This document shows positions 3,225-18,671 of a DNA stretch of 64,000 nt, one piece after another. This stretch comes from a virus (Duplodnaviria > Caudoviricetes). The notes under the pieces are model-generated. The model saw only the letters and a program-made list of their open reading frames with translations. It did no database searches and had not been told where the DNA came from. Each line of letters starts with the position of its first letter. Position 1 is the stretch's first letter. The stretch lies in the IMG/VR virus record IMGVR_UViG_3300045391_005020; one strand, given 5' to 3'. Both the position numbers and the translations under genes were made by a program.

Positions 3225-3464
3225 TCATCGTGCACTCAGCTCTTTCTCACCATCTTGGGTTAGGGCCCAGCCGGAGCCAACTTGGACGACCAGCTTGTAG
3301 GATTCGAGACGCTCGAGGGTCGTCTTGATCGAGTTTATGTAGCGCCAATTCTGGTTCGGACCCTCTTCGGTTTCGGGCCAGATGTACTCGACGATCTCCG
3401 GAACGGTCGTGAAGCGGTGAGAGAGTGCCTCCAGGATCGCGAGTTCGTTCTGAGTCAGGTTCAT
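3225..3464 (-). CDS. winged-helix-like small protein
   Basis: MNLTQNELAILEAL...TVPEI...IKTTLERLESYKLV pattern; ATG at 3464 coupled to the upstream gene. Confidence 0.5.
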   Translation of the reverse strand: MNLTQNELAILEALSHRFTTVPEIVEYIWPETEEGPNQNWRYINSIKTTLERLESYKLVVQVGSGWALTQDGEKELSAR

Positions 3465-3799
3465 GGTTCGTCCTTGTTCTTGCCGGTCAGGAGCCACACG
3501 TGGCACACTTCGAGTCGGGCGGCCTGTTGAATCACGCCCATGATCGCGCTCTCGCGCTGCTCGGTTACGGTCGCCTTGGTGTAGCGGTGGAACCGGTCCA
3601 GGAAGATCGCGATCTCGTCGTCGACCGTCTGGCGGTTAATCTTGCCCTTCTCCCAGCGGTCAGCGAGCACCAGGTAGAGCCGGACGGCGACCATCAGGAG
3701 TCCGATCTGGAGCGGTGTGTCGAGATTCTTCGACACCACCAGCATGGCCTCGGCTTGCCGGCGCAGGATCGCCGGCGACAGATCGTCCGTCACGTTCAT
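3461..3799 (-). CDS. hypothetical protein
   Basis: 112 aa, translationally coupled on both sides. Confidence 0.6.
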   Translation of the reverse strand: MNVTDDLSPAILRRQAEAMLVVSKNLDTPLQIGLLMVAVRLYLVLADRWEKGKINRQTVDDEIAIFLDRFHRYTKATVTEQRESAIMGVIQQAARLEVCHVWLLTGKNKDEP

Positions 3800-4005
3800 T
3801 CGCCAGCGAGATACTTGATGGACCGCTTGGTTACCTGCGCGGCCTTGCGGAGCAGTTTCATAGACGGATTGGAGCGCTGACCGGACTCGATCAGGCTCAG
3901 GTAGGATGTCGAGATTCCCAGCAGAGCGGCGAACTCGGTCTGGTTCTTCTTCATCCGTTGGCGTTGCGCTTGCCAGCGCTTACCGATGACGTTGTCGTCT
4001 GACAT
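3796..4005 (-). CDS. XRE/Cro-C1 HTH transcriptional regulator
   Basis: NQTEFAALLGISTSYLSLIESGQRSNPS is a classic HTH_3 motif; likely start MSDDN at 4005. Confidence 0.9.
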   Translation of the reverse strand: MSDDNVIGKRWQAQRQRMKKNQTEFAALLGISTSYLSLIESGQRSNPSMKLLRKAAQVTKRSIKYLAGE

Positions 4006-7556: not shown

Positions 7557-7631
7557 TGGTCCGCGCACAGGGAATTGAACCCCGATTCCCTCCTTATCAG
7601 AGAGGTGTCCTGACCGTTGGACGATACGCGA
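7557..7631 (-). tRNA. tRNA-Ile(GAT)
   Basis: CCTCT-CTGATAA-GGAGG; TTCAATT T-loop; CCA. Confidence 0.85.
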
Positions 7632-7638
7632 GTGAAGA

Positions 7639-7713
7639 TGGTGCTCAGCCAGGGAATTGCACCCCAGTCCCACCCATACCAAGGGCGTGTACTGCTGACT
7701 GTACTAGCAGAGC
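7639..7713 (-). tRNA. tRNA-Thr(GGT)
   Basis: CGCCC-TTGGTAT-GGGTG; CCA. Confidence 0.85.
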
Positions 7714-7781
7714 GTGAAACAGCGTCGTAAAGCAAGCGCGTTGCTTCGTGACAATAGACTTGACCAGGACACGATGCGTGC

Positions 7782-8081
7782 GTGATCGATGAAGAATTTG
7801 TAATCGTCGACGGCTCTGTCGAGTCGCCCCTGTTGACCGCTGAGGAGGCTGCGGCCTATCTGCGCTGTCACCCCAAGACGCTTGGTAAGCGTGGGGTGCC
7901 ATATGTCGACCTGGGGCATCGATCACACTTCTACCGGAAAGAGGACCTCGATGCTTGGATCGCGCAGCGGCTCAAGAAGCCGCTCGCATCCGCGCCGGCG
8001 CGCGTGGATGTCCTGGCGCTCGAGCCCGTGCGCGAGTACCTGCCGAAGCGCCGGAAGCGCGCTACGAGTCGAGCTTCCTGA
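7782..8081 (+). CDS. excisionase-like HTH (MerR/HTH_17) protein
   Basis: LLTAEEAAAYLRCHPKTL...YRKEDLDAWI; convergent with the integrase; has its own promoter motif at 7751. Confidence 0.85.
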   Translation: MIDEEFVIVDGSVESPLLTAEEAAAYLRCHPKTLGKRGVPYVDLGHRSHFYRKEDLDAWIAQRLKKPLASAPARVDVLALEPVREYLPKRRKRATSRAS

Positions 8082-9396
8082 CCACTTCCCTGAACACCGT
8101 GCGCGACGGGTGCGCGTATCGCTCGGTGAGCTTCGTCGAGCTGTGTCCCATGAGTCCCTGGATGTGGTAGATGTCCACGTCCTTCTCGGTCAACCGGGTG
8201 GCGTACGTATGGCGCAGATCGTGGATCCTGAGCGTCGGTTTTCCGAGTTCCTCCCGGACTCGTTCCCACGCCTTGCGGAGCCCGACGGCCGGGCGTGGCC
8301 CGAACCGCTGTTCTTCCGCGGCGAGCCGCATCTTCACTGCTTCTTCGCGGGTCAAGAAAACCCCGAGGTACTTGGGGCGACCGCCGCGGCCACTCCCGAT
8401 CTCGGCGCGGTACCGGATGGCGCCGCCCTTCTGGCGCACCTTGCGGACGCCGAGGATTTGTCCGCCAGGAACCGATCGCTTCGGGAGCCGCGTGTTGCGC
8501 TCGCGATCGAGCCGAGACAGGGTGCCAGCGTGCCACGGAAAGATTGGCTCGGCGGCGCGGGCCTGGGCGACCTGCTTCAACTCCGCGACCGTGGCGACAC
8601 CGGCGCGACGCAGCAGCATGTCGATCGTTCGGTTCCGGAGCGGAACCTCGCGCATCTTATGGTTCTTGGTCACGTACCCCAGCAGACGCACGAACGGCTC
8701 GAGCTTCTCGGTGAACAGGATCGAGCTCCACGTGAGCGCCAAACCTTCACGCCGCCGCGCGCCCGTATCCATCAAGAGCATCGCGTAGTCGCGCAGGTCG
8801 GGCGTTGGCTCGCACAGCGCCAGCAACCGATCCGCTTCGGCCTCGCTCAGGGCCAGGTAGTTCGCAACCCCGACCGGCACCTTTTTGAATTCCGGAACCG
8901 GCATCCCGGCTCCCCAAAACTTGTTCGCGTACCGGCACACCACCGTGACGTTCATGAGCGTGGTGTTCACCGTGTTGGGGGCCAAGCCGGCCGCCAGCAT
9001 GGCGCGTTTGAAATCGCTCAGGCGCTCGGTGGTCACCGCGGTCAGCGGCGTCTTCTCGCCCAGGAACTCGACGATCCGGCCGAACAGAGACGCGCGGGTT
9101 GCCAAGGACTGCTTGTAGGGTCGATCGTGGTAGCAGGGGGCCACCACCTCGACCAGGTAGTCGTCGAACGCTTTCTTGACCGTCAGAGCCGAGCGCTCCG
9201 GCGGTGCCACGGTCACGGCCATGATCGGCACATGCTGGGCCTGGTCGCGCGCCGCCTTCCGGAGATTCACCTTCCACTCGTCCTCGAACTCGCGCGCGTC
9301 GTTCTTGGTCGGGAAGCCGCGCCGCGTGAAGCGTTGGTTCTTAAACTCGAACTGGACGTAGTAGGAATCGGTGCGTTTGTCGAAGCAGGCAGACAT
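8062..9396 (-). CDS. int: tyrosine integrase with an N-terminal arm-binding domain and an internal AP2-like insertion
   Basis: Catalytic motifs TGARRRE, TKN, HDLRH, MGHSS, TERY; N-terminal YYVQF...RRGFPTKNDARE. Confidence 0.93.
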   Translation of the reverse strand: MSACFDKRTDSYYVQFEFKNQRFTRRGFPTKNDAREFEDEWKVNLRKAARDQAQHVPIMAVTVAPPERSALTVKKAFDDYLVEVVAPCYHDRPYKQSLATRASLFGRIVEFLGEKTPLTAVTTERLSDFKRAMLAAGLAPNTVNTTLMNVTVVCRYANKFWGAGMPVPEFKKVPVGVANYLALSEAEADRLLALCEPTPDLRDYAMLLMDTGARRREGLALTWSSILFTEKLEPFVRLLGYVTKNHKMREVPLRNRTIDMLLRRAGVATVAELKQVAQARAAEPIFPWHAGTLSRLDRERNTRLPKRSVPGGQILGVRKVRQKGGAIRYRAEIGSGRGGRPKYLGVFLTREEAVKMRLAAEEQRFGPRPAVGLRKAWERVREELGKPTLRIHDLRHTYATRLTEKDVDIYHIQGLMGHSSTKLTERYAHPSRTVFREVVRKLDS

Positions 9397-9412
9397 GCTA
9401 TTTCTCCCATTG

Positions 9413-9765
9413 GTGTCACTACGGACTCACAGCACTTGGTCACCTGCAAGCCACCGTACCCCCTTTGGGTGCAATTCAAAATAGCGACTGATTGGTTTCG
9501 TTCGATGGTGTCATACACTCGGTATTTACCGATATTCTGTGCATTCCGTGCAGGCGATCCGATCATCGTAACAATAGATTTTAACCAGTGTTAAAACCCA
9601 TCTTTCGTAATTCAGATAGCCACGGTTCGATTAAATTCCCCAACCGCAGCCATTTGCACGACTTGTACCTAACAAAACCGTCTAGCTACTACTCCCGTTC
9701 GAAATCATAAAGGTAGTAAAAGGAGCGATGCGGACTCGCCGGTCACCTGCAAAGTCACCTGCAAA
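9413..9765. mobile_element. putative attP (arm-type repeats flanking an AT-rich core)
   Basis: GTCACCTGCAA at 9439-9449, 9742-9752 and 9754-9764; non-coding, immediately upstream of int. Confidence 0.6.
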
Positions 9766-9793
9766 CTACTGGGTTTATGGATGAAAAACGAAG

Positions 9794-9865
9794 TGCCCAA
9801 GAGAGGGATCGCACCTCCGACCTTTCGCTTACGAAGCGACTGCTCTACTGCTGAGCTACTCGGGC
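9794..9865 (-). tRNA. tRNA-Thr(CGT), no encoded CCA
   Basis: GTCGC-TTCGTAA-GCGAA; full cloverleaf. Confidence 0.85.
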
Positions 9866-9912
9866 GCATGGGCCGCATCGTGCTCAAACGACGCCACGCG
9901 TCTAGGGGTGAC

Positions 9913-9987
9913 TGGTGCCCACGGCCACGAATCGCACGAGCGTCTCCTGAGTACAAAACAGGTGTCCTGCTACTGGACGACGCGGGC
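9913..9987 (-). tRNA. tRNA-Thr(TGT)
   Basis: Anticodon loop TTTGTAC; CCA. Confidence 0.8.
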
Positions 9988-9993
9988 ATTGAA

Positions 9994-10069
9994 TGGACTA
10001 CGCGATCGGTGCTGCCCCGACTTGGTCCTGCTTGGAAGGCAGGCGATCTGCTAGATGACCCACGCGTAG
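9994..10069 (-). tRNA. tRNA-Gly(TCC)
   Basis: CCTGC-CTTCCAA-GCAGG; U73; CCA; T-loop GGCAGCA. Confidence 0.85.
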
Positions 10070-10076
10070 GTGAAAG

Positions 10077-10334
10077 TTAGATTGGTTCGCCGTGCAGCTG
10101 AATCAGCGCATGGCATCGATGGGTGAGTTCGAAGCACGCCATCGCGGTCTGGTTGGCGACCTCATGGGGAACGTAGAGACGACCCCGTTCGGGATCGAAG
10201 TGCGCGCCGCGCAGCCACGGCATCTCGGTTAGGATCGGAACACCGATCGCCATCAGCTCGTCGTAGGTGAGCCAGTACCGGTACGGCCAGCTCAGAGTGG
10301 CGGGTGCTTCAGGTGTCTCTTGGCCGTCGGGCAT
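10077..10334 (-). CDS. hypothetical protein
   Basis: 85 aa ORF inside the tRNA region. Confidence 0.5.
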   Translation of the reverse strand: MPDGQETPEAPATLSWPYRYWLTYDELMAIGVPILTEMPWLRGAHFDPERGRLYVPHEVANQTAMACFELTHRCHALIQLHGEPI

Positions 10335-10531
10335 GAGATCTGGAATCCGATCGGAGCCGGACGGTTCAGGATGTCGTCGTGGCGGGCTTCGTCTTCTTCG
10401 CGGGCGCAGCGAGCGGCCCGGATCTCGTTGATCAGGAACATGATGGCGGCTCCTACCAGGAAACCGGCCGCGAATCCGACGGAGAGTATGATTGGCACAC
10501 CCGGATCATAACGAGTCAAGTCTATTGTCAA

Positions 10532-10606
10532 TGGTGCTGGCCCAGGGAATTGAACCCCGGTCTGAGCGGTACGAAGGCCCTGTTCTGCTAACTAAACTAG
10601 GCCAGC
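10532..10606 (-). tRNA. tRNA-Thr(CGT), second copy
   Basis: Anticodon loop TTCGTAC; TTCAATT T-loop; CCA. Confidence 0.8.
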
Positions 10607-10660
10607 ATGGCGAGACAATAGATTTGACTGACAGTGTAATATTACATACAGTCGGCCGGT

Positions 10661-11431
10661 ATGCGTACCGCCCTCCTGCTGTTACTATTCGGAACTCTGT
10701 CGGCCGCGGTCCCGGGAATCCCTGAGCCGCCGGCGCCGGGCCCGATCCCGGAAGTGACGCTCGGGTGGTTCAACGACTGGCACGCGATCCCGACCACGCA
10801 CTCGGATGATCACCGGACCAACGCGTTCATCGTGGGGATCCGGATCGACGACTGGGTCTACCAAGTCGACGACTCGATGCTCACGTCGCGCGAGCTCGGG
10901 GTCAGGAACGACGAACTCTCGCTGACCGCAGGCTACATCATCGCGAACGACGAGTCGGCCTCGATCGTCCTCGGCGGCGGGGTTCGGCTCCGCGGAGACT
11001 ATGGCGGCGAGTCCACCCAGAACTGGTGGCATTCGCAGTGGCGCGATTACCCGGTCCACCTTGCGTACGAAGACTCGGTTCCGAGCCCGATTCTCTACAT
11101 GATGAATCACCTGCGGACGTTTCCGCTCAACGATCATTCGCTCGAGATCATCGCGGACGGTGAAGTCCTGTCGGACGCGCTCGCCGTCGATCTCGGGCTG
11201 CGCGACGTCGTGTTCCTGAATGACGCCGGTGACATCCGTATCTGGTTCGGCCCGCGCTGGCAGTTCCGCGAAGATTGGCAGGACAATCAGATCGGTCCCG
11301 AGATCGCTCGATTCGAACGAGGTCTCTGGATCGACTACGGGATCCAGATCGGTCACTTCAGCCTCGGAGAACGCCATGCGATCGGGCGCTCCGAAGGCAT
11401 GGGCACGATCAGCTGGAGCTGTGGATTCTAA
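10661..11431 (+). CDS. secreted outer-membrane beta-barrel, LpxR (lipid A deacylase)-like
   Basis: Signal peptide; NDW...SDDHRTNAF resembles the LpxR N-terminal ND...D..YT motif; amphipathic strands; C-terminal Phe; own promoter at 10615. Confidence 0.55.
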   Translation: MRTALLLLLFGTLSAAVPGIPEPPAPGPIPEVTLGWFNDWHAIPTTHSDDHRTNAFIVGIRIDDWVYQVDDSMLTSRELGVRNDELSLTAGYIIANDESASIVLGGGVRLRGDYGGESTQNWWHSQWRDYPVHLAYEDSVPSPILYMMNHLRTFPLNDHSLEIIADGEVLSDALAVDLGLRDVVFLNDAGDIRIWFGPRWQFREDWQDNQIGPEIARFERGLWIDYGIQIGHFSLGERHAIGRSEGMGTISWSCGF

Positions 11432-11598
11432 TGACCAAAGTACCTCTTTCGCCCTGGACGCGCCTCACGAGTCGCTCCGAACTGGAGTCTGACGCGCGCT
11501 ACTTCAAGCTGCTCGACGAAAACGGCCGGAAGCATCTGACCGCAGAAACAAAGAAGCGCATCGACGCACTCCGGATGATGTACGGCGACGACGCCTGA
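11431..11598 (+). CDS. small hypothetical protein (MTKVPLSPW...)
   Basis: TAATG coupling to the upstream gene. Confidence 0.5.
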   Translation: MTKVPLSPWTRLTSRSELESDARYFKLLDENGRKHLTAETKKRIDALRMMYGDDA

Positions 11599-11601
11599 TG
11601 A

Positions 11602-11679
11602 TGGTCGGCGCCGTGGGAGTCGAACCCACCTGTGACCGCTTATAAGACGGCTTGCGACTGAACCGGTCGCGTGACGCCA
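11602..11679 (-). tRNA. tRNA-Ile(TAT)
   Basis: GCCGT-CTTATAA-GCGGT; TTCGACT T-loop; A73; CCA. Confidence 0.8.
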
Positions 11680-11682
11680 CTG

Positions 11683-12468
11683 TTATGGTTCAGGGGCCCA
11701 GGTGACCGAGCTGAACTCGATGTGCCTGGTAGAGTCTGGATTCCAGACGTCGAACACTTTGACGCCGGTTCCTTCGTCCATCGGGATATAGGCGTCCGCG
11801 GCGCTCACGTTGGTGAGCGGGCTTGGCGGGTTCGACTGATACGTTACCGCATAGAAGTTTCGCATGTAACCGTTGATTCCCGGGTTGTCGTAGCCGACGC
11901 GCATCCCGAGGAGACCAGCGCCCGTCGTGATGTTCGCCCCGACTGTTCCAGAGACCACTGAGACTCCGTTGAGAAACACAGCCGTTACGCGAGACGTGTT
12001 GACGGTGATCCTGATTGTGTTCCACGCACCGAAGTTGAATAGACCGGGAGCTGAGCTGTTCTGGAAGGCTCCGCCCGCCCATTGTGCTTGCCAGCGCAAC
12101 GATCCGTCACCCATCACCCGTAACTCATACCCGTAATTTGAGACGTTCCACGGTGCCCCGAAAGAGAACAAGCCAGCGGATCCAGAGGCGTGATTGACTT
12201 CGAACTCCCACGTGCGGGCCTGGAGACCGCCGGCCGCGATGTGCCACATCGTGTTTCCGCGCCCGTAGAACGCCTGGTTGGTGCTGCCGAGGCTCTGGAG
12301 GTTGGTGTCGAACGGCCGATCGTAAATCGTTTCCGGCATGCGCCCGCCCTGGACGGCTTCAACATGCGAGAGAGCCTCGGTCTTCCGGAACCTGTCTTGC
12401 TCGATCTGGTTCTGCTGGCCAGCTGGAGTTCGACTCTTACCGTTGTCGGTTACGCGGAATTTAGGCAT
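11683..12468 (-). CDS. LamG/concanavalin-like domain protein
   Basis: WNTIRITV...VFLNGVSV...INGYMRNF...PMDEGTG beta-sandwich pattern. Confidence 0.6.
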   Translation of the reverse strand: MPKFRVTDNGKSRTPAGQQNQIEQDRFRKTEALSHVEAVQGGRMPETIYDRPFDTNLQSLGSTNQAFYGRGNTMWHIAAGGLQARTWEFEVNHASGSAGLFSFGAPWNVSNYGYELRVMGDGSLRWQAQWAGGAFQNSSAPGLFNFGAWNTIRITVNTSRVTAVFLNGVSVVSGTVGANITTGAGLLGMRVGYDNPGINGYMRNFYAVTYQSNPPSPLTNVSAADAYIPMDEGTGVKVFDVWNPDSTRHIEFSSVTWAPEP

Positions 12469-12506
12469 ACCACAGAGTTTATGGTTGCCATGTCGGCATA
12501 CTAGGG

Positions 12507-12582
12507 TGGCGTCGCGGGGTGGGCTCGAACCACCAGCCTCCAGCTTCGGAGGCTGGTGCTCGTCCGATCGAGCTGCCGCGAC
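12507..12582 (-). tRNA. tRNA-Arg(CCG)
   Basis: CCAGC-CTCCGAA-GCTGG; CCA. Confidence 0.9.
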
Positions 12583-12586
12583 AAAA

Positions 12587-12661
12587 TGGAACGCATGCTG
12601 GGAATCGCACCCAGATCCTCTCGCTGGCAGCGAGACGTCTTAGCTGTTAGACGACACACGC
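12587..12661 (-). tRNA. tRNA-Gly(GCC)
   Basis: TCTCG-CTGCCAG-CGAGA; U73; CCA. Confidence 0.9.
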
Positions 12662-12667
12662 GTGAAA

Positions 12668-13096
12668 CTAAAGAAGCGGAAGCTGTCCCGTCACGGGATC
12701 GATCTCGTGGTCCCAGTGTGGACCGATCGCCAGACACGTCTTGGTCGGAACCCCGTTGAACTCGGTGAGGCCGCGGTCTTCGATCAGATGACACCGTAGC
12801 CCACGAGCCTTCGCGGCCAGCTCGATGTCGAGCAAGGCCTGCTCGGACTCAACGTAGCAGCAGATCTTCCGGAAGTTGCCGAAGTACCAGGCTTGCTCGG
12901 CCGGATCCAGGAAGATCCCGTCGAGCTCGATTTTGACGTCGTTGTCCTTCAGGCCTGGACGGCTCTCGCGCGGCCCGAACACTTTGAGCATCAGGGCTGC
13001 GATGCTGGCATGAGATCCCTGAGCGATCATCTTACCCTTGCGCATATTGAGGTCCTTGCGGACCACGATCACTTGCTTAACCGAGTTGACTGACAT
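12668..13096 (-). CDS. pth2: peptidyl-tRNA hydrolase type 2
   Basis: KQVIVVRKDLNMRKGKMIAQGSHA, IEDRGLTEF, TCLAIGP, IDPVTGQLPLL. Confidence 0.95.
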   Translation of the reverse strand: MSVNSVKQVIVVRKDLNMRKGKMIAQGSHASIAALMLKVFGPRESRPGLKDNDVKIELDGIFLDPAEQAWYFGNFRKICCYVESEQALLDIELAAKARGLRCHLIEDRGLTEFNGVPTKTCLAIGPHWDHEIDPVTGQLPLL

Positions 13097-13135
13097 GGCA
13101 GCACTGTACAGAGTCCTTGTTGGGTTGGAAGGAAA

Positions 13136-13212
13136 TGGTCCGCCGCGTAGGACGTGCGCCTACATCCCCCGGTTAAGAGCCGGGTGCATCTGTCTGTTTA
13201 TGCTTGCAGCGA
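13136..13212 (-). tRNA. tRNA-Lys(CTT)
   Basis: CCCGG-CTCTTAA-CCGGG; CCA. Confidence 0.9.
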
Positions 13213-13218
13213 ATGAAG

Positions 13219-13293
13219 TGGTTGACCACCACGGGGTCGATCCGTGTTCCCTCGGTTAAAAGCCGAGTGCATCAGCCCTAATGCTTGTGATCT
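13219..13293 (-). tRNA. tRNA-Lys(TTT)
   Basis: CTCGG-CTTTTAA-CCGAG; CCA. Confidence 0.88.
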
Positions 13294-13299
13294 GTGAAA

Positions 13300-13373
13300 T
13301 GGAGGCGCGAGGAGGAATCAAACCTCCGTGGACAGGGTTGCAATCTGCCGCCTGGTCACTCGGCCATCGCGTC
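13300..13373 (-). tRNA. tRNA-Cys(GCA)
   Basis: Anticodon loop TTGCAAC; U73; CCA. Confidence 0.88.
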
Positions 13374-13470
13374 TTGAAAAGTAAAGGGTGCCCGTTCTTC
13401 CTATTGGTAGAAGAACGGGACTTGTTGGTGTCACGCGTGATGACACCACGGGTACGGTCGTCCGGCCCAG

Positions 13471-13758
13471 TCAGGCGACTTCTGGAGTTCGCTGCTCCGG
13501 GAGACCGAGGAACGCATTGCGCATGTTCTCGATGCGCGACTCTGGCGACCGGTGCGCCGTCGGCTTACCGCGGATCACAAGCGAGAGGTCGTGAAGGGTG
13601 CTGATCAGGAGCGCGTTGTAGTGCGCCTGAGACTGCGCGACGCGAGCTGCGTTGCTCACGTGTGGCTCGTGCGTGACCGCCTTGAAGGCGACCTGCATGG
13701 CAACGAGCTTCTTGAGCTCGCACCGTATTTTGTAGACGTCGTCGGAGATCTGGGACAT
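13471..13758 (-). CDS. hypothetical protein
   Basis: 95 aa with an AAAGG SD. Confidence 0.55.
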   Translation of the reverse strand: MSQISDDVYKIRCELKKLVAMQVAFKAVTHEPHVSNAARVAQSQAHYNALLISTLHDLSLVIRGKPTAHRSPESRIENMRNAFLGLPEQRTPEVA

Positions 13759-13761
13759 TGG

Positions 13762-14097
13762 TTACCTTTCAGGATTCCAGAGTTTGTGGTGACGAAACAG
13801 TTTCCTGGCCTCGCCCGAGATGGGCGCGGTCGCGAGCGCGGTAGCGGCGTTGCCGATATCGGGCTCTCGGAAGAGAGTGAGAGGAATGCCGGCCCCGGTG
13901 AGCCGCTCAGCTTCCTGGAGAAGCTCGAGCTCAGACGGGACACCGATCACGATCAGGTGGCTGATCTGGTCGGTCTGGTACGGGTGGAGGAGTGCGACCT
14001 CGTGGGTCGCGTGGGCAGCCTGAACAAGCTGCTGGGCCAATGGCAGGTCTAGCCTGACAAGGCAGTAGACGTAGCCGGGTAGCTAGGCGTTCTTCAT
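13762..14097 (-). CDS. Pth2-like (PTRHD1-type) protein with an in-frame amber codon at codon 5
   Basis: ATG AAG AAC GCC TAG CTA CCC... reads MKNA*LPGYVYCLVRLDLPLAQQLVQAAHA...FREPD...TALATAP; VRLDL and QAAHA match the Pth2 motifs VRKDL and QGSHA. Confidence 0.8.
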
Positions 14098-14138
14098 GGT
14101 AACGATTTCACCAAGCTGACCAGGGCGGTCAAGGCTAT

Positions 14139-14372
14139 TCAATCTTCGTAATCCAGCTTCTGGAGCTCGTCCAGATCGCGGTCACTCAGGTGCTCTTCGG
14201 GCGAGGGCGTGTTCAGCAAGGTGACGCCGTTGATCGCGGTCACGTGCTTCATGTAGCGCTTCAGGAGCTCTTTGTAGTCGGGCTCAGCCTGCTGGACCAT
14301 AACGGCAAGCCGGTTATTCGACTTACCGATCTGGCGCAGGTTGGCTTTGAAGGTATCGGACGCTTTAGTCAT
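14139..14372 (-). CDS. hypothetical protein
   Basis: 77 aa with an AGGAG SD. Confidence 0.65.
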   Translation of the reverse strand: MTKASDTFKANLRQIGKSNNRLAVMVQQAEPDYKELLKRYMKHVTAINGVTLLNTPSPEEHLSDRDLDELQKLDYED

Positions 14373-14384
14373 GGCTGGCTCCTA

Positions 14385-14460
14385 TGGTGCCCCCGGTGGG
14401 ATTCTCGCCCACAACCGCCGGGTTTAGAATCCGCCGCTCTTGATATTGAGCTACGGGGGC
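14385..14460 (-). tRNA. amber suppressor tRNA (anticodon CTA)
   Basis: Canonical spacing: GCCCCCG acceptor, GCTC/GAGC D-stem, GCGGA-TTCTAAA-CCCGG, GTGGG/CCCAC T-stem, A73, CCA. Only 3 Watson-Crick pairs in the anticodon stem. Confidence 0.75.
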
Positions 14461-14517
14461 ATGGGGGACTATGGCACAATATAACGCCACAGTCAAGGCC
14501 ATTGTCACGAATCGGAC

Positions 14518-15411
14518 CTACTCCTGGCCCTCGCGCTTGTATTCATTCATCTTACTGATCTTCAGGTTGACCTCTTCGACTGCCTGCTTCTTCTGCTTGG
14601 TCTTGGCACCTTTACGGGCGCTGGCAGAGCGTTCGTCGATCATGCGGTCTCTGGTGTTGCCGAGCAGGTCCTCGGTGGCGCTGAACAGACGCTTAACCGA
14701 TTTGTCTTCGCGCCACTGCTCTATCGCCCAGGTGCAGTTCCAGTAGTTGTCGCTGGAGCCCGAACCGATGCGATCACCCAGCACCGCGTTGCGGAGGACC
14801 AAGATCGGACTGCCTTCAGGCAGATCCGTGCCGGCCAGGTATGAGTCGATGAACTCCTCGGCCTTCCGAGGATAGAAGTGATGGAAAACCACCATTGCCG
14901 CCGCGATGGTCGCGCGGGTTAAACGAGCACGTTTCGTGTTGAATTTCCCGGTCACGAACTCGAACGACGCAGACATCTTGAGGAAAGTGTCCTCGAGTTC
15001 GTCGATCGTCGGGCGGTGGTGGACGCCGGTGCACTTCAGATACTGGCTAACGATCTGATTGCAGAGACGGTTATGGGCCGGGTCATTCAGAAGTTTGAGG
15101 CACTCGAAGCTGGTACGATTGCGACCGCGGTCCGTATGCTTAGCGATTTCAGGACTACCGCCGCGCATGACGTACATCCACTGCCCTTTGCCAGTAATGA
15201 CGATCGCGGCGAGTCGGTGTTGGCCGTCGAGTACTTCACCGTCTTTACCGATGCAGATACCCTGATGGGTCGTCATGAACTCATCGTTCATAATAAGCCG
15301 GACGAAGTAATCGGTATTGGCCGGCGTCATCGGGCGCGCGTTGTTGTGGTTGTGGTTTTTTAGCAAGTCCTCGGCTATTTCCTTGGACACGTATTCTCGG
15401 TTGTACGACAT
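14518..15411 (-). CDS. ParB N-terminal-like domain protein
   Basis: NARPM...THQGICIGKDGEVLDGQHRLAAI. Confidence 0.65.
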   Translation of the reverse strand: MSYNREYVSKEIAEDLLKNHNHNNARPMTPANTDYFVRLIMNDEFMTTHQGICIGKDGEVLDGQHRLAAIVITGKGQWMYVMRGGSPEIAKHTDRGRNRTSFECLKLLNDPAHNRLCNQIVSQYLKCTGVHHRPTIDELEDTFLKMSASFEFVTGKFNTKRARLTRATIAAAMVVFHHFYPRKAEEFIDSYLAGTDLPEGSPILVLRNAVLGDRIGSGSSDNYWNCTWAIEQWREDKSVKRLFSATEDLLGNTRDRMIDERSASARKGAKTKQKKQAVEEVNLKISKMNEYKREGQE

Positions 15412-15525
15412 AGGATCTTTCCCGCCCGCTGTGGGCCATTTCGTAGACAGTGTAAATTCGCGTTACCGAGGCCAAATATACGAGCTGTTGCACACAGTCA
15501 AGATCATTGTATTGATCGTACTAAA

Positions 15526-15603
15526 TGGTCGGGATGGCGGGATTTGAACCCACGATCTCCTGGTCCCAAGCCAGGCGGAGTAACCAGACTCTCCTACACC
15601 CCT
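15526..15603 (-). tRNA. tRNA-Pro(TGG)
   Basis: CCTGG-CTTGGGA-CCAGG; CCA. Confidence 0.9.
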
Positions 15604-15610
15604 ATGAAAA

Positions 15611-15687
15611 TGGTCAGAGTGGTTGGATTTGAACCAACGATCTCCTGGATCCGAACCAGGCAGAATACCAAGCTTTCCCACACTCTG
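15611..15687 (-). tRNA. tRNA-Pro(CGG)
   Basis: CCTGG-TTCGGAT-CCAGG; CCA. Confidence 0.92.
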
Positions 15688-15692
15688 AAAAA

Positions 15693-15767
15693 TGGCGCCC
15701 CCACGCGGTGCTGCCCCGCGCTCTCCTGATAGACAATCAGGCGTCTTAGCTGATGGACGATGAGAGC
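15693..15767 (-). tRNA. tRNA-Asp(GTC)
   Basis: CCTGA-TTGTCTA-TCAGG; G73; CCA. Confidence 0.88.
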
Positions 15768-15771
15768 AAAA

Positions 15772-15865
15772 GCCCGCGCTTTATTCGACCGCCTTCGCGG
15801 CCACCCGTTCAACCGACGGGCAGGTCAGCCTTACGGCTGCGCGGAACCTGATTGCCTTGCGGCAC
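15772..15865 (-). ncRNA. candidate small structured RNA with GNRA hairpins
   Basis: TGCC-GCAA-GGCA; CAGGT/ACCTG enclosing CAGCC-GTAA-GGCTG; CCCGT/ACGGG. Confidence 0.45.
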
Positions 15866-15868
15866 GAA

Positions 15869-15943
15869 TGGTGGATCCGAGGTGACTCGCACACCTATCC
15901 CTCTGCTTGCAAAGCAGCCGCTCTTCTTTGGAGCTACGAACCC
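15869..15943 (-). tRNA. tRNA-Ala(TGC)
   Basis: Anticodon loop TTTGCAA; G3:U70; CCA. Confidence 0.9.
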
Positions 15944-15965
15944 GAAAAACATGCAGATAACGCGC

Positions 15966-16062
15966 TGGTTCCCGCGGCCTATTGATTTGCTATTCCGCCC
16001 GGACGGGAGCGGTTGCTGGCTCGAGCACAGCGGCGGCGTGTTACCAATTACACTAACCGGAG
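15966..16062 (-). ncRNA. degenerate tRNA-like RNA with an expanded anticodon arm
   Basis: D-arm GTGT-AATTGGTA-ACAC; CCGCC...GGCGG enclosing an insertion; ends ACCA; T-arm degraded. Confidence 0.35.
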
Positions 16063-16234
16063 CAACCCGGCCGGGCGTCGAACCCGATTTCCGCAAGAGG
16101 TGACCGCTCCATGCCTGGTACGGGTTGAGCGCGATCTCGAGCAGCGCTGCAGCGTGGCTCGATGTTTCGCTCGGTCATTCTCGTCCTAAGGGGACGGGTG
16201 GCCCGTAGAGGATTTGATCCTCAGCGATCATGAA

Positions 16235-16311
16235 TGGAGGGAGAAGGCGGAATCGAACCGTCTTGCGAGCGCGCCCGCATCGAGCCCAGGTATCCCTGTT
16301 CGAATTCTCCC
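16235..16311 (-). ncRNA. tRNA-like RNA with no anticodon loop
   Basis: GGGAGAA/TTCTCCC acceptor, GACGG-TTCGATT-CCGCC T-arm, U-CCA; the middle arms are non-canonical. Confidence 0.65.
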
Positions 16312-16316
16312 ATGAA

Positions 16317-16405
16317 TGGCGGGGTGAGATGGGTTCTATACCACCGACCTCTCATTGGCCGACATTGCTGTCGGCGAATAAGTGCTCTCGCTGAGCTACC
16401 ACCCC
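16317..16405 (-). ncRNA. tRNA-like RNA with the anticodon loop replaced by a GCAA-capped hairpin
   Basis: GCTC-AGCGA-GAGC D-arm; CTTAT-TC-GCCGACA-GCAA-TGTCGGC-CA-ATGAG; CCA. Confidence 0.65.
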
Positions 16406-16470
16406 AAAGAGGATCCGTCGGTCACGAACACTGATGAGGTGCTCGATTCGGTCATCAGCCGACCGACGGC

Positions 16471-16813
16471 GTTAAGTTGTTTGAAGCGAGCTCGAGTGAG
16501 GGGTTACAATTCCCTGACTTATCTCCGCAATCACGTATTCGACCATCCTGCCTCATCCGTGCCCGAACGGCCGTTCGGGACACCGGGTCAACAGCAGGAG
16601 GAGGACTCTCACCTCCACACGCTCGCCTTCTAGTCGTTATATTTGGCTACCAAGCGTGGCTCTCGAGTTGCGCACCGATGAACACCCAATGCGTCTCGAT
16701 CGTCGTCTTGCGCTTTCGCGTTCTTTCGTACCTCTTTATGTTCTCAAGAGTGCCTTGGTCCCCGAAGGACGGGTTGGCTCGGCCACACGCGGGCGCGCTT
16801 CAATCAACTTAAC
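16471..16813 (-). ncRNA. large structured ncRNA (~340 nt) closed by a long terminal helix
   Basis: GTTAAGTTGATTGAAGCGCGC pairs with GCTCGCTTCAAACAACTTAAC; many internal hairpins; preceded by boxA and a promoter motif; no credible ORF. Confidence 0.65.
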
Positions 16814-16820
16814 AAACTGG

Positions 16821-16832
16821 ATTTCAAAGATC
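16821..16832 (-). promoter_or_regulatory. boxA-like antitermination site
   Basis: GATCTTTGAAAT just downstream of the promoter motif at 16864. Confidence 0.6.
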
Positions 16833-16884
16833 GAAGCACAGATAATCCGGTCCCGGCCATGATAGTCAAGGCCATTGTTATGAT

Positions 16885-16961
16885 TGGTTGCGAGTCTTGG
16901 AATTGCACCAAGCTACTTGGCTTATGAGACCAGGCAGGATCTATCTCCTGTCGAACTCGCA
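16885..16961 (-). tRNA. tRNA-Met(CAT) (could be Ile2 if lysidine-modified)
   Basis: Anticodon loop CTCATAA; CCA. Confidence 0.8.
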
Positions 16962-16966
16962 TTGAA

Positions 16967-17042
16967 TGGTACGCGACGATGGATTCGAACCACCGGTCTT
17001 CTCGATGTCACCGAGTTGCTCTGGCCGCTGAGCTAGTCGCGT
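16967..17042 (-). tRNA. tRNA-Val(GAC)
   Basis: Anticodon loop GTGACAT; TTCGAAT T-loop; CCA. Confidence 0.9.
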
Positions 17043-17047
17043 ATGAA

Positions 17048-17122
17048 TGGTGGTCAGCCAGGGACTCGAACCCTGATTCTCCGGGTGTAGGCCGGGCGTT
17101 CTTGCCGTTGAACTAGCCGACG
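17048..17122 (-). tRNA. tRNA-Val(TAC)
   Basis: Anticodon loop CCTACAC (C33); CCA. Confidence 0.85.
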
Positions 17123-17127
17123 ATGAA

Positions 17128-17201
17128 TGGCACCCACTGATGGAATTGAACCACCGCCTGAACGTTCGTAGCGTCCCGGTCTTCCGTTAGCCTAAGCGGG
17201 C
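17128..17201 (-). tRNA. tRNA-Arg(ACG)
   Basis: GGACG-CTACGAA-CGTTC; CCA. Confidence 0.88.
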
Positions 17202-17224
17202 GTGTCCCTACCTGCGCAGGGAAA

Positions 17225-17299
17225 TGGTACTCGGTCAGGGTTCTGCCCCCTGTTCTCGCGGATGAAAGCCGCGGATCTTAGCTAGTGGACGAACCGAGC
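17225..17299 (-). tRNA. tRNA-Glu(TTC)
   Basis: CGCGG-CTTTCAT-CCGCG; CCA. Confidence 0.88.
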
Positions 17300-17304
17300 A
17301 TGAA

Positions 17305-17380
17305 TGGGCCAAGAGACCGGATTCGCACCGGCATCACGGGAGACACAATCCCGCATCCTCACTGTTGGACGACTCTAGGC
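17305..17380 (-). tRNA. tRNA-His(GTG)
   Basis: CGGGA-TTGTGTC-TCCCG; G-1 and C73; CCA. Confidence 0.9.
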
Positions 17381-17385
17381 ATGAA

Positions 17386-17460
17386 TGGGTGACCCGCGAG
17401 GATTCGAACCTCGAGCAGCGAGATCCAAAGTCTCGCGTTCTACCATTGAACTACAGGTCA
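17386..17460 (-). tRNA. tRNA-Gln(TTG)
   Basis: CGAGA-CTTTGGA-TCTCG; U1-A72; CCA. Confidence 0.9.
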
Positions 17461-17614
17461 GTGAAAAAGGTCAGGCGCTCTTCCGGGTTAAGCTAGCAAG
17501 ACAAGGGCCTGGGCGCATGGCGTCGATCGCCGCTTCCGCGCTGTTCCGCGAGTGTCGTCGAGGCCTCGACGACTGCTCTTCTTGGACGGGATTCGAACCC
17601 GCATCTCCTGAGAG

Positions 17615-17689
17615 TGGTAGTCCTACTGTGTGCTGCCCACAGTTTGTCCGGCTGAGAACCGGGTGTACTAGCTGGTGTACGATAGGACC
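17615..17689 (-). tRNA. tRNA-Glu(CTC), nested in a second tRNA-like frame
   Basis: CCCGG-TTCTCAG-CCGGA; CTGTG-GGCAGCA-CACAG; CCA. Confidence 0.8.
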
Positions 17690-17784
17690 AAGAAAAAGGA
17701 GTCGGCCAGGTCAGCTGGCATTGATATCTGCGTAGGTCGGAATACCCGGCGCACCGGGGCGACATCGCATACGACTCCGAAGAT

Positions 17785-17860
17785 TGGCGGCGCCGACAGG
17801 ACTCGAACCTGTCGCCTTCCCGTTAGGACCGGGACGCTCTACCGGATGAGCTACGGCGCT
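17785..17860 (-). tRNA. tRNA-Arg(CCT)
   Basis: TCCCG-GTCCTAA-CGGGA; CCA. Confidence 0.9.
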
Positions 17861-17900
17861 CTGACCGCGCGCACGAAATGTGGCTCGCGCGCACGGAATG

Positions 17901-17974
17901 TGGCTGGACCGGAGGGATTCGAACCCTCACGCCCGCGTTTAGAAGGCGCGGCTCTGATCCGATCAGGCGGTCCC
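17901..17974 (-). tRNA. tRNA-Arg(TCT), atypical D-arm
   Basis: CGCGC-CTTCTAA-ACGCG; TTCGAAT T-loop; G73; CCA. Confidence 0.75.
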
Positions 17975-18028
17975 GAAACTTGACACATGAGCCAGAATTC
18001 GTCTGCTCTGACCCGAAAGGATTTACTC

Positions 18029-18268
18029 ATGCCCATGAGTCGAGCAGGACGGGCCGCGGTCGCGGCAGCAGCCAAGAAGCGTTGGAGGCTGATCAAGGCT
18101 GGAAAGATCCGGAAGCCGAAGGTCGGCCGCAAGGCCGGCGGACGCAACAGTGCAAAATTATCGATCAAGTCGTCCGGTCAGTCCGGGCTCAAAGAAACCG
18201 TGAAGGCGTTGAAACAGCTCGGGGCCGCGGCGGGATGCCGGGTCGAAGTGACGCTCGTCCCGAAGTAG
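18029..18268 (+). CDS. small basic nucleic-acid-binding protein
   Basis: MPMSRAGRAAVAAAAKKRW motif; Lys/Arg-rich. Confidence 0.55.
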   Translation: MPMSRAGRAAVAAAAKKRWRLIKAGKIRKPKVGRKAGGRNSAKLSIKSSGQSGLKETVKALKQLGAAAGCRVEVTLVPK

Positions 18269-18580
18269 TTACTTGGTCCAGTGAGGGGTGTTAAGCATCA
18301 TCGCATGCGCCTCGGTCTGGATATCGCTGAACTCGCGCTCACTCATTCCGGACTTGATGGCCTCGATCTGGAGTCTCGCCAACAGAGCGGCTGCGAGGCC
18401 TAGGCAGGTCTTGAGTGGACCGCGATGGAAGGTTCCGAATAGGGCCTCGTTGGTCCCGGTCGTCTCGTCTTGTTTGACCATCGAGATCACGCACGCGATT
18501 CCGCGGCTCTGGAGCTCCGAGATCAATTCGCGATCGGGTACGAGTTTCAGATTCATGACGGTTTTGTAGCCAGACCGCAA
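18269..18580 (-). CDS. hypothetical protein (similar N-terminus to 27465-27788)
   Basis: NL..VPD.ELI.EL.SR..ACVI pattern shared between the two. Confidence 0.55.
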   Translation of the reverse strand: MRSGYKTVMNLKLVPDRELISELQSRGIACVISMVKQDETTGTNEALFGTFHRGPLKTCLGLAAALLARLQIEAIKSGMSEREFSDIQTEAHAMMLNTPHWTK

Positions 18581-18597
18581 TGCGATCCAGCCAGAAA

Positions 18598-18671
18598 TGG
18601 CAGCCAGGCAGGGAATCGAACCCCGATATCGTGGTTAACAGCCACGTGTAATACCGTTATACGACCCGACT
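18598..18671 (-). tRNA. tRNA-Asn(GTT)
   Basis: CGTGG-CTGTTAA-CCACG; G73; CCA. Confidence 0.92.

What the first reader, a model, noticed from the sequence alone, without database searches (positions are those of the whole stretch)
13762..14460. Amber-interrupted Pth2-like gene next to an amber-suppressor tRNA: a readthrough-gated rescue enzyme
SEEN: ATG at 14097 reads MKNA-TAG(14083-14085)-LPGYVYCLVRLDL...QAAHA, in frame with the tracked 92-aa ORF. The first Pth2 strand (YCLVRLDL, compare QVIVVRKDL in the intact pth2 at 12668) lies between the TAG and the tracked TTG start, with no ATG or GTG in between. A complete fold therefore needs readthrough. The context is UAG-CUA. A tRNA with anticodon CTA lies about 300 bp upstream on the same strand. 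TAG remains an ordinary stop elsewhere (int, pth2). KNOWN: Pth enzymes recycle peptidyl-tRNA after ribosome drop-off, and prfB uses an internal stop codon as a release-factor sensor. INFERENCE: this second hydrolase is made only when the suppressor tRNA is expressed or RF1 termination fails, so it acts as a conditional translation-rescue switch.
Basis: partly seen in the sequence, partly recalled or inferred. Interest (0 to 1): 0.88.

Follow-up and report, generated by a model that had tools for sequence, protein, structure and literature searches.

The report
Suppressor-tRNA-gated phage Pth2-like gene
A large phage that otherwise uses the normal genetic code has a UAG stop as the fifth codon of a small tRNA-hydrolase-like gene, 291 bases downstream of its own UAG-reading tRNA; dozens of distant phages, some lab-grown, share this layout, so the enzyme is probably made only when that tRNA overrides the stop.

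Summary
On the minus strand, ATG 14097 is followed by AAG AAC GCC, then TAG (14085-14083), then 106 sense codons of a Pth2-fold protein. A tRNA with anticodon CUA lies at 14388-14460 (Rfam 50.4 bits; ARAGORN missed it).

This is not a recent nonsense mutation. Of 46 distinct relatives read at the DNA level, 30 have ATG, 1-7 more sense codons, then TAG just before the first beta strand. It is never TAA, even at 24% GC. One lineage has TGA and carries a tRNA(UCA) instead. A tRNA(CUA) lies within 3 kb on the same strand in most loci. The cultured phages RsoM2USA, XacN1, Serratia BF, GAP32, ME3 and Arash share the design, and there the gene is unannotated or called truncated.

The window is not recoded overall: TAG ends about 9-14% of its predicted genes. 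In relatives, a partner gene for an HD-type phosphohydrolase (an enzyme family named for a His-Asp motif) is adjacent, fused or itself TAG-gated. The window has no such gene.

The best reading is a translational gate opened by the phage's own suppressor tRNA. What the enzyme does, and the "rescue switch" logic, are untested.

This scan has reported the same motif on other DNA (at least 55 genomes). I found no published description.

The parts
14385..14460 (-). tRNA with anticodon CUA (amber suppressor type), 3' CCA encoded
   Evidence: Rfam RF00005, 50.4 bits, E 3e-10, full-length. The acceptor, D and T stems are perfect. The anticodon stem has two non-standard pairs (G27-G43, A31-C39). The D-loop lacks GG and the T-loop is CGAGAAU. 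ARAGORN missed it.
14468..14496 (-). Sigma-70-like promoter match (TTGACT, 17 nt, TG-CATAGT), 7 nt before the tRNA
   Evidence: Consensus scan: 1 site found against 1.2 expected, so this is weak evidence. No terminator-like site lies between the tRNA and the gene.
14139..14372 (-). 77-aa ORF between the tRNA and the gated gene, function unknown
   Evidence: Weak hit to phrog_21984. No homologue in the related loci.
14108..14112 (-). Shine-Dalgarno-like GGTGA, 10 nt before ATG 14097
   Evidence: Read from the sequence. No comparable site lies before TTG 14040.
14086..14097 (-). Start codon and three-codon leader (ATG AAG AAC GCC)
   Evidence: The same ATG-plus-short-leader design occurs in 30 relatives.
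14083..14085 (-). In-frame TAG, codon 5: the gate
   Evidence: Its position is conserved just before strand 1 in relatives.
13762..14082 (-). Body of the Pth2-like protein (106 codons) plus the TAA stop
   Evidence: AlphaFold2 pLDDT 93. Foldseek TM 0.71-0.78 to archaeal and human Pth2. The clade profile scores 126.9 bits here.
13471..13758 (-). 95-aa ORF starting 4 nt after the gated gene's stop, function unknown
   Evidence: No family hit.
12668..13096 (-). Canonical, uninterrupted PTH2 paralogue that ends in TAG
   Evidence: Pfam PF01981, 100.4 bits. It scores only 14.4 bits against the gated-clade profile.

Best explanation
The gene at 13762-14097 (minus strand) is a working gene. It belongs to a large, phage-specific clade of Pth2-fold proteins marked by the motifs VQxxHA and FREPDIGNxxTA. 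Its translation is gated by an early in-frame UAG.

Proposed sequence of events:
1. Ribosomes start at ATG 14097.
2. At codon 5, release factor 1 competes with the phage's own tRNA(CUA), encoded 291 nt upstream on the same strand and probably on the same transcript.
3. Only when that tRNA is present and charged is the 111-aa protein completed. Otherwise a tetrapeptide is released.
4. The gate sits in the unstructured N-terminal leader, so any inserted amino acid is tolerated.

Shown here: the anatomy, the conservation, the co-variation of codon and anticodon, the fold, and standard-code use elsewhere in the window.

Inferred:
- That the tRNA is expressed and charged.
- That the enzyme hydrolyses an ester at the tRNA 3' end. 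The HD partner in relatives suggests tRNA 3'-end maintenance.
- That the gate makes enzyme output follow the level of active suppressor tRNA, either as feed-forward control or as negative feedback.
For: 1. Conservation. Of 46 distinct relatives (27-54% identity, GC 0.24-0.65), 30 have ATG, 1-7 more sense codons, then TAG, with no canonical start before strand 1. One has TGA. TAA never occurs at the gate.
2. Co-variation. A tRNA(CUA) lies within 3 kb on the same strand in most loci. The TGA-gated L018 and L020 carry a tRNA(UCA) instead. More distant CUA tRNAs occur in RsoM2USA (13 kb away) and in the L007 contig (6.9 kb away).
3. The ATG is the start. Shine-Dalgarno sites precede the first ATG. 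In L029 the upstream gene's TGA overlaps this ATG.
4. Mid-gene TAGs rule out reinitiation. L023 has a TAG inside the domain. The HD partner gene has TAG at codon 47 in seven cultured phages, while the codons around it vary.
5. The tree places gated members on both sides of the deepest splits. Ungated members fall mainly in two well-supported clades, and the L023 internal TAG is nested inside an ungated clade.
6. An independent sample of the protein library gave 2,742 clusters at E<=1e-10. Of the top 150, 34 have a Q at residue 2-5 or 9 (33 of them at residue 2-5), and 3 of 3 checked at the DNA level are TAG.
7. The window uses the standard code.
8. Fold and motifs.
Against: - Nothing is experimental. 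Expression, charging and amino-acid identity of the tRNA are unknown.
- This window's tRNA is aberrant: two mismatches in the anticodon stem, no G18-G19, an odd T-loop, and ARAGORN does not call it.
- By E. coli rules (from my own knowledge), UAG followed by C is a poor context for suppression. Most relatives have UAG followed by A.
- About 9-14% of the window's predicted genes end in TAG, so a strong suppressor would be costly.
- Eleven relatives are ungated, and nine of them (all but RaK2 and L035) still keep the tRNA nearby. The gate is therefore not essential to the partnership.
- The canonical Pth2 lysine loop is missing, so the enzyme's chemistry is uncertain.
- The window's protein scores below the Pfam threshold (19 bits against 23).
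- The HD partner is absent from these 64 kb.
Confidence: 0.75

Rival explanations
1. Short upstream ORF with termination and reinitiation. ATG...TAG is a tiny leader ORF. Ribosomes terminate at the TAG and restart at once on the next codon or nearby, so no suppressor is needed.
For: A canonical start follows the TAG directly in Cane17 (ATG TAG GTG, annotated from the GTG) and in L032 (TAG ATG). About a third of the gates are followed by ATT or ATC, which are rare start codons.
Against: - The window has CTA after the TAG. Many relatives have AAT, AAC, GAA, CAC, ACT or AGA there, and none of these is a start codon.
- This reading does not explain why the stop is always TAG, never TAA, at 24-35% GC.
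- It does not explain why TGA pairs with a tRNA(UCA).
- It does not explain the mid-gene TAGs in L023 and in the HD partner gene.
Confidence: 0.08
2. RF1 sensor without the tRNA. The UAG is read through by near-cognate host tRNAs only when release factor 1 is scarce or inhibited, which is. The nearby tRNA(CUA) would serve other purposes.
For: UAG is the only stop codon read solely by RF1 (established knowledge). The logic resembles that of prfB. This window's tRNA looks weak.
Against: The tRNA is linked on the same strand in most loci, and the codon switches with the anticodon in the TGA lineage. A pure RF1 sensor explains neither. No RF1-directed factor was seen in the window.
Confidence: 0.06
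3. Decaying pseudogene, or a sequencing or assembly error at 14083-14085.
For: Taken alone, the pattern is common by chance in this GC-rich window. The phage has an intact canonical PTH2 that could make this copy dispensable.
Against: The same early TAG occurs in 30 diverged relatives, including independently sequenced cultured phages. The rest of the ORF is intact with every invariant residue kept, and the model is confident.
Confidence: 0.03
4. Genome-wide recoding: the phage reads TAG as an amino acid everywhere (code 15), and this gene is just one of many with in-frame TAG.
For: The phage carries a tRNA(CUA). Recoded phages with such tRNAs are known (bioRxiv 10.1101/2021.08.26.457843).
Against: Coding density hardly changes between code 11 and TAG read as sense (0.80 against 0.85; the TGA control gives 0.90). 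No other convincing in-frame TAG lies on the coding strand. Several well-supported genes end in TAG. The related loci give the same result.
Confidence: 0.03

Closest known systems
Stop-codon-recoded phages with phage-encoded suppressor tRNAs (TAG read as Gln, 'code 15'; crAss-like, Lak and others; bioRxiv 10.1101/2021.08.26.457843; PMC9523058)
   Same: A phage tRNA(CUA) reads in-frame TAG in phage genes while the host uses the standard code. The proposed purpose is also the same: to make translation of certain genes depend on the suppressor.
   Different: There, TAG is a sense codon in many late, structural and lysis genes, and TAG is largely given up as a stop. Here the genome keeps the standard code. 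One gene is gated in the window and two in some relatives. The gate sits at codons 2-9, the gated genes encode tRNA-end enzymes, and the tRNA is linked to them in cis.
prfB (release factor 2) autoregulation through an in-frame UGA
   Same: An early in-frame stop codon inside a translation-factor gene makes its output depend on the balance between termination and a competing event.
   Different: prfB escapes by a +1 frameshift and senses its own product. Here escape is by a dedicated tRNA, with no frameshift, and no link between the enzyme and RF1 has been shown.
Canonical Pth2 (PF01981; archaeal and eukaryotic peptidyl-tRNA hydrolase 2, for example MJ0051, SsPth2, human Bit1/PTRH2)
   Same: The fold is the same (TM 0.71-0.78). 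The Q..HA motif and the Asp and Thr of the D-x-G...T-A motif align.
   Different: The conserved Gly-Lys-Gly-Lys loop is deleted and the D-A-G loop is shortened to PDIGN. The window's protein falls below the Pfam threshold. The clade is phage-specific and occurs alongside a canonical PTH2 in the same phage.
Programmed stop-codon readthrough in viruses (Q-beta A1 protein, retroviral gag-pol) - from my own knowledge
   Same: A viral protein is made only when a stop codon is decoded as sense.
   Different: Those cases use host tRNAs at low efficiency to add a C-terminal extension to a protein that is made anyway. Here the stop precedes the whole protein, so readthrough decides whether any protein is made, and the virus supplies the tRNA.
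Orphan suppressor tRNAs of standard-code jumbo phages (XacN1, PMC5852040; Atu_ph07, PMC6102473; GAP32 'Sup-tRNA')
   Same: These are the same tRNAs in the same kind of phages.
   Different: Those papers report no target. The XacN1 authors tested readthrough past 18 amber stops and found none. Here a target appears: XacN1 ORF364 has ATG AAG TAG five codons before its annotated start.

Membership tests
PTH2 superfamily (PF01981 / Pth2 fold) | Pth2 alpha/beta fold with a four-stranded sheet | tested here: met
   AlphaFold2 pLDDT 93, pTM 0.86. Foldseek probability 1.0 and TM 0.71-0.78 to 2zv3, 1wn2, 3erj, 1xty and 1q7s.
PTH2 superfamily (PF01981 / Pth2 fold) | Sequence match above the Pfam gathering score | tested here: inconclusive
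   The window's protein scores 19.0 bits against a cut-off of 23. Relatives score 27.9-30.8 bits. The clade profile hits solved Pth2 sequences at E 8.7e-9 to 1e-2.
PTH2 superfamily (PF01981 / Pth2 fold) | Canonical active-site residues (the lysine of the G-K-G-K loop; the Asp of the D-A-G motif) - residue roles recalled from memory, not checked in a paper | tested here: inconclusive
   The Asp (D80) and Thr (T86) align and are invariant. The two-residue stretch holding the loop lysine is deleted and the flanking positions are Q or Y-Q.
PTH2 superfamily (PF01981 / Pth2 fold) | Peptidyl-tRNA hydrolase activity | not testable with these tools
   Needs an enzyme assay.
Gated phage Pth2-like clade (VQxxHA ... 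FREPDIGNxxTA) | Clade motifs present and a high score against the clade profile | tested here: met
   All eight invariant residues are present. The window's protein scores 126.9 bits against 14.4 bits for the window's canonical PTH2.
Gated phage Pth2-like clade (VQxxHA ... FREPDIGNxxTA) | ATG, a short leader, then an in-frame stop before strand 1, with no canonical start in between | tested here: met
   In the window the TAG is codon 5, nine residues before R15.
Gated phage Pth2-like clade (VQxxHA ... FREPDIGNxxTA) | Matching suppressor tRNA on the same contig and strand | tested here: met
   The tRNA(CUA) lies 291 nt upstream on the same strand.
Gated phage Pth2-like clade (VQxxHA ... FREPDIGNxxTA) | Partner HD-type protein (phrog_14850), adjacent or fused | tested here: not met
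   No hit in the 64-kb window by tblastn (E<0.01) or by profile search (best E 1.1). It may lie outside the window. It is also absent from many related loci, so it is frequent but not defining.
Functional amber-suppressor tRNA | tRNA cloverleaf with anticodon CUA in a 7-nt loop with U33 | tested here: met
   Full-length Rfam match, loop UUCUAAA. The anticodon stem has two non-standard pairs and the elbow is atypical.
Functional amber-suppressor tRNA | Expressed, aminoacylated and active on the ribosome | not testable with these tools
Identity elements are ambiguous (A73, G1-C72, 5-nt variable loop).
Code-15 (TAG-recoded) phage | Many genes need TAG read as sense; coding density rises sharply under code 15 | tested here: not met
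   Density is 0.80 under code 11 against 0.85 with TAG as sense (TGA control 0.90). There is one gated gene, and TAG ends 14 of 99 predicted genes.

The most novel reading that the evidence does not exclude
The suppressor tRNA may be both the key and a stand-in substrate. The gated enzymes (the Pth2-like esterase and, in relatives, the CCA-enzyme-type HD phosphohydrolase) act on tRNA 3' ends, including that of the suppressor. Charged tRNA(CUA) opens the gate, and the enzymes in turn change its charged or intact fraction. That would form a self-contained homeostat that reads the state of the tRNA pool during infection, for example under attack by host toxins aimed at tRNA. Supporting hints are that ungated clades still keep the tRNA directly beside the gene, and that a TAG gate was regained at a new site in L023.
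Probability: 0.2. Interest if true: 0.92.

Novelty: new variant of a known kind. Interest (0 to 1): 0.8.

Why it matters
Many standard-code jumbo phages carry "orphan" suppressor tRNAs whose purpose is unknown. The XacN1 authors looked for targets and found none (PMC5852040). This finding gives those tRNAs a concrete, conserved target: one or two genes for tRNA-end enzymes that are locked by the matching stop codon.

If confirmed, it would be a natural, portable switch built from a tRNA key and a stop-codon lock, operating inside a standard-code cell. It could also be an evolutionary stepping stone towards full stop-codon recoding.

It also flags a systematic annotation error. In RsoM2USA, BF, fHe-Yen9-04, the pEa_SNUABM phages, GAP32, CBB and Arash the gene is missing or truncated in the GenBank records.

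The idea can be tested directly, because several carriers are cultured on laboratory hosts.

Tried and rejected
- **Whole genome:** none is held for this window.
- **ARAGORN:** it did not call the tRNA; Rfam did.
- **Second scan of viral contigs, using the alignment:** it returned the same loci, all found through the FREPDIGN pattern. The locus sample is therefore limited to members with that exact motif.
- **Scan of genome contigs:** one hit only, a 427-kb contig in a MAG labelled Thermoplasmatota, probably a mis-binned phage. Its gene is ungated and a tRNA(CUA) lies 45 nt downstream.
- **HD partner in the window:** none found.
- **Other gated genes in the window:** none convincing.
- **RNA structure around the TAG that might promote readthrough:** none (z = -1.28).
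- **orf77 and orf95 as conserved partners:** no homologues in related loci.
- **Amino-acid identity of the tRNA:** not resolvable. The suppressor tRNAs of different loci are diverse (64% mean column identity).
- **Papers giving the Pth2 catalytic residues:** none found in the library, so that point rests on memory.
- **Pyrrolysine:** ARAGORN's 'tRNA-Pyl' label reflects only the anticodon. No Pyl genes were seen.
- **Literature searches for a prior description of the gate:** nothing found.

Full report
**1. The observation**

On the minus strand the sequence reads ATG(14097) AAG AAC GCC TAG(14085-14083) CTA CCC GGC TAC GTC TAC TGC CTT GTC AGG CTA GAC CTG CCA TTG(14040), and continues to TAA at 13764-13762.
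- The tracked ORF is the 92-aa TTG-started frame.
- No ATG, GTG or TTG lies between the TAG and the TTG.
- Read through, the protein has 111 residues (P0001).

Several results place essential parts of the protein before the TTG, which is residue 20:
- Pfam PTH2 matches residues 12-96, weakly (19.0 bits; threshold 23).
- The AlphaFold2 model, built on a 29-sequence alignment, is confident (pLDDT 93, pTM 0.86). It places the first strand at residues 8-15.
- R15 and D17 are nearly invariant in the family.

A TTG start would therefore delete a core strand and two conserved residues.

ARAGORN lists 20 tRNAs, none of them here. Rfam finds a full-length tRNA at 14388-14460 on the minus strand (50.4 bits), with anticodon loop UUCUAAA, so the anticodon is CUA. 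It lies 291 nt upstream of the ATG on the same strand.

The pattern alone would not be significant in this 60% GC window: 18 TAG, 21 TGA and 7 TAA sites fit it by chance.

**2. The window uses the standard code**

- Coding density is 0.80 under code 11, 0.85 with TAG read as sense, and 0.90 with TGA read as sense as a control.
- On the coding strand only four TAGs have long open frames on both sides, no more than TAA or TGA.
- Of 99 predicted genes, 14 end in TAG. These include the canonical pth2 (12668-13096) and the ParB-like gene (14518-15411).
- No second candidate for a gated gene stands out.

**3. Relatives**

A tblastn search of 50,697 phage records found 248 with a match. Thirty-six of them at E<=1e-8 are mostly cultured jumbo phages. 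A scan of IMG/VR gave 32 loci, 29 of them distinct.

I read the DNA upstream of the first strand in 46 distinct relatives. They sort as follows:

| Class | Count | Notes |
|---|---|---|
| Early TAG gate | 30 | ATG, 1-7 more sense codons, TAG; no canonical start before strand 1 |
| Early TGA gate | 1 | L018, with its near-copy L020 |
| Ambiguous | 2 | A start codon directly follows the TAG: L032 (TAG ATG), Cane17 (ATG TAG GTG) |
| Internal TAG | 1 | L023: normal start, TAG inside the domain |
| Frame conflict | 1 | L006, the window's nearest relative |
| Ungated | 11 | |

- The gate codon is never TAA, although GC ranges from 0.24 to 0.65.
- In L006 the ATG and the domain are in different frames. 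Reading a C5 run as C4 reconciles them and gives TAG CTC CCC, which matches the window's TAG CTA CCC. This is an inference.

Cultured carriers, with the start of the gene as read:

| Phage | Start of the gene |
|---|---|
| RsoM2USA | ATG TTG TAG (gene unannotated) |
| Serratia BF and Erwinia pEa_SNUABM_19 | ATG ACG CAC TAG |
| Yersinia fHe-Yen9-04 | ATG TCT CAC TAG |
| GAP32 and CBB | ATG GCA CAA TAG |
| XbC2 and Kaldavass | ATG GCT CAC TAG |
| ME3 | ATG ACT TAG |
| Arash | ATG CTG TAG |
| XacN1 and RAS14 | ATG AAG TAG |
| Xoo-sp13 | ATG AAG AAG TAG |

Three observations mark the first ATG as the true start:
- Shine-Dalgarno sites lie before the first ATG.
- In L029 the stop of the upstream gene overlaps this ATG (TTATGAGTCTATAG).
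- The base after the stop is A in about two thirds of the gates. From my own knowledge, this is the context best suppressed by amber suppressor tRNAs in E. coli. The window has C.

**4. The tRNA link**

- ARAGORN finds a tRNA(CUA) within 3 kb, always on the gene's strand, in 25 of the 32 IMG/VR loci. This holds whether the gene is gated or not.
- The two TGA-gated loci instead have a tRNA(UCA).
- CUA tRNAs also occur in ME3, Arash, GAP32 and Cane17, in RsoM2USA 13 kb away, and in the L007 contig 6.9 kb away.
- XacN1 has two (PMC5852040).
- L035 and RaK2 are ungated and no CUA tRNA was found for them.
- The suppressor tRNAs are diverse in sequence. This fits a gate placed in an unstructured leader, where any residue will do.

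**5. Readthrough rather than reinitiation**

- The TAG in L023 lies inside the domain.
- In seven cultured Eneladusvirus and Mimasvirus phages the next gene, the HD partner, has TAG at codon 47. ME3 and Arash have Val at that position, and the flanking codons vary.
- The maximum-likelihood tree puts gated members on both sides of the deepest splits. Ungated members fall mainly in two well-supported clades (support 99/94 and 100/98). L023 is nested inside one of them, which implies that a gate was regained at a new site.

**6. Size of the family**

A profile search of 1.84 billion representative proteins gave 2,742 clusters at E<=1e-10. Among the top 150:
- 34 have a short leader with Q at residue 2-5 or 9 (33 at residue 2-5);
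- 31 start inside strand 1, which suggests truncated gene calls.

Three of three Q-leader proteins checked at the DNA level translate only with TAG read as Q. Only one hit came from 185,579 prokaryotic genomes, so the clade is essentially phage-borne.

**7. What the enzyme is**

- Foldseek matches archaeal and human Pth2 with TM 0.71-0.78.
- The clade profile hits solved Pth2 sequences, best E 8.7e-9.
- The Q..HA motif and the Asp and Thr of the D-x-G...T-A motif align with the invariant Q26, H29, D80 and T86. The G-K-G-K loop is deleted.
- The window's canonical PTH2 scores only 14 bits against the clade profile, so the two are distinct paralogues.

In relatives an HD-type protein (phrog_14850) accompanies the gene:
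- It is adjacent in RsoM2USA, L029, ME3, Arash, BF and GAP32.
- It is fused to the N-terminus in XacN1, Xoo-sp13, RAS14 and L011.
- It is fused to the C-terminus in L018 and L020.

Its best match among solved structures is the HD region of class II CCA/A-adding enzymes (E 3.6e-4, with the HDIGKP motif). That points to chemistry at the tRNA 3' end. The window has no such gene, but it does encode RtcB, a tRNA ligase.

**8. Mechanism and rivals**

The best reading (0.75) is a gate opened by the phage's suppressor tRNA. Whether it works as feed-forward control (the enzyme is made in proportion to suppressor activity) or as negative feedback on a stand-in substrate tRNA remains open.

| Rival | Confidence |
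|---|---|
| Reinitiation after a leader ORF | 0.08 |
| RF1 sensing without the tRNA | 0.06 |
| Pseudogene or sequencing error | 0.03 |
| Global recoding | 0.03 |

Caveats specific to this window:
- the tRNA has an atypical anticodon stem and elbow;
- the context UAG followed by C is poor for suppression;
- the promoter match before the tRNA is weak.

**9. Prior knowledge**

I found no paper describing the gate.
- The XacN1 paper reports failing to find targets for its suppressors.
- Iyer et al. note PTH2 in jumbo phages but do not mention the stop.
- The recoding preprint proposes suppressor-driven gating of late genes in recoded phages.

This scan has already reported the same motif on other DNA, in at least 55 genomes, including the HD partner.

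Noticed in passing
L003 (XacN1, AP018399.1) about 946-966; L002 about 940-963; L072 about 2443-2451: The HD-Pth2 fusion genes of XacN1 (ORF364), Xoo-sp13 and RAS14 have ATG, 1-2 codons, then TAG, with the Shine-Dalgarno site before that ATG. This lies five codons upstream of the annotated start in XacN1 and Xoo-sp13; RAS14 is annotated from a start much further downstream. It gives XacN1's 'targetless' CUA suppressors a target.
   Followed up: partly
L066/L067/L089-L093, HD-like gene at locus 3312-3878 or 1312-1878: In seven cultured jumbo phages (BF, GAP32, pEa_SNUABM_19, fHe-Yen9-04, CBB, XbC2, Kaldavass) the HD-like gene next to the Pth2-like gene has a conserved in-frame TAG at codon 47. 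It is annotated as two or three fragments.
   Followed up: yes
L023:2994-3284: In a 441-kb contig at 28% GC, the Pth2-like gene has a normal start but an in-frame TAG inside the domain (after ...RYPD). A tRNA(CUA) lies 70 nt downstream. Whether this contig is recoded overall was not settled.
   Followed up: partly
window 35155-36387 (-): RtcB tRNA-splicing/repair ligase (Pfam 433 bits) in the same phage as the 22-gene tRNA array and the two Pth2 paralogues.
   Followed up: no
window 9913-9987 (-): A second tRNA found by Rfam (41.9 bits) but missed by ARAGORN. Its anticodon loop is ambiguous (UUUUGUACU).
   Followed up: no
window 7557-18671 (-): Many of this phage's tRNAs have non-canonical T-loops (UGCAAUU or UGCGAUC in place of UUCGAAU) and D-loops without GG. 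All but one (tRNA-Thr 9793-9865, as extracted) encode CCA. The oddities of the suppressor therefore fit a genome-wide trend.
   Followed up: partly
window 8062-9396 (-): A tyrosine-integrase-family gene sits inside the tRNA array and ends in TAG. Readthrough would add 29 codons.
   Followed up: no
L070:4301-4375 (Salmonella phage Arash): A tRNA annotated as tRNA-Phe in the record is read by ARAGORN as anticodon CUA.
   Followed up: no
L075:2451-2521 and G002 49077-49146 (contig of L022): Two tRNA-like genes have the loop CAUCUAG. ARAGORN reads UCU (called for L075:2451-2521), but the register that keeps U33 reads CUA. They may be hidden suppressors for the gated L022 gene.
   Followed up: no
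L006:2960-3010: In the window's nearest relative (54% identity, GC 0.65) the ATG and the domain are in different frames. Reading a C5 run as C4 reconciles them, which suggests a homopolymer error or a real frameshift.
   Followed up: partly
L029:808-1159: A phage-encoded tmRNA (tag ADEFAFAEAA) lies 1.8 kb upstream of the HD and gated Pth2-like pair.
   Followed up: no
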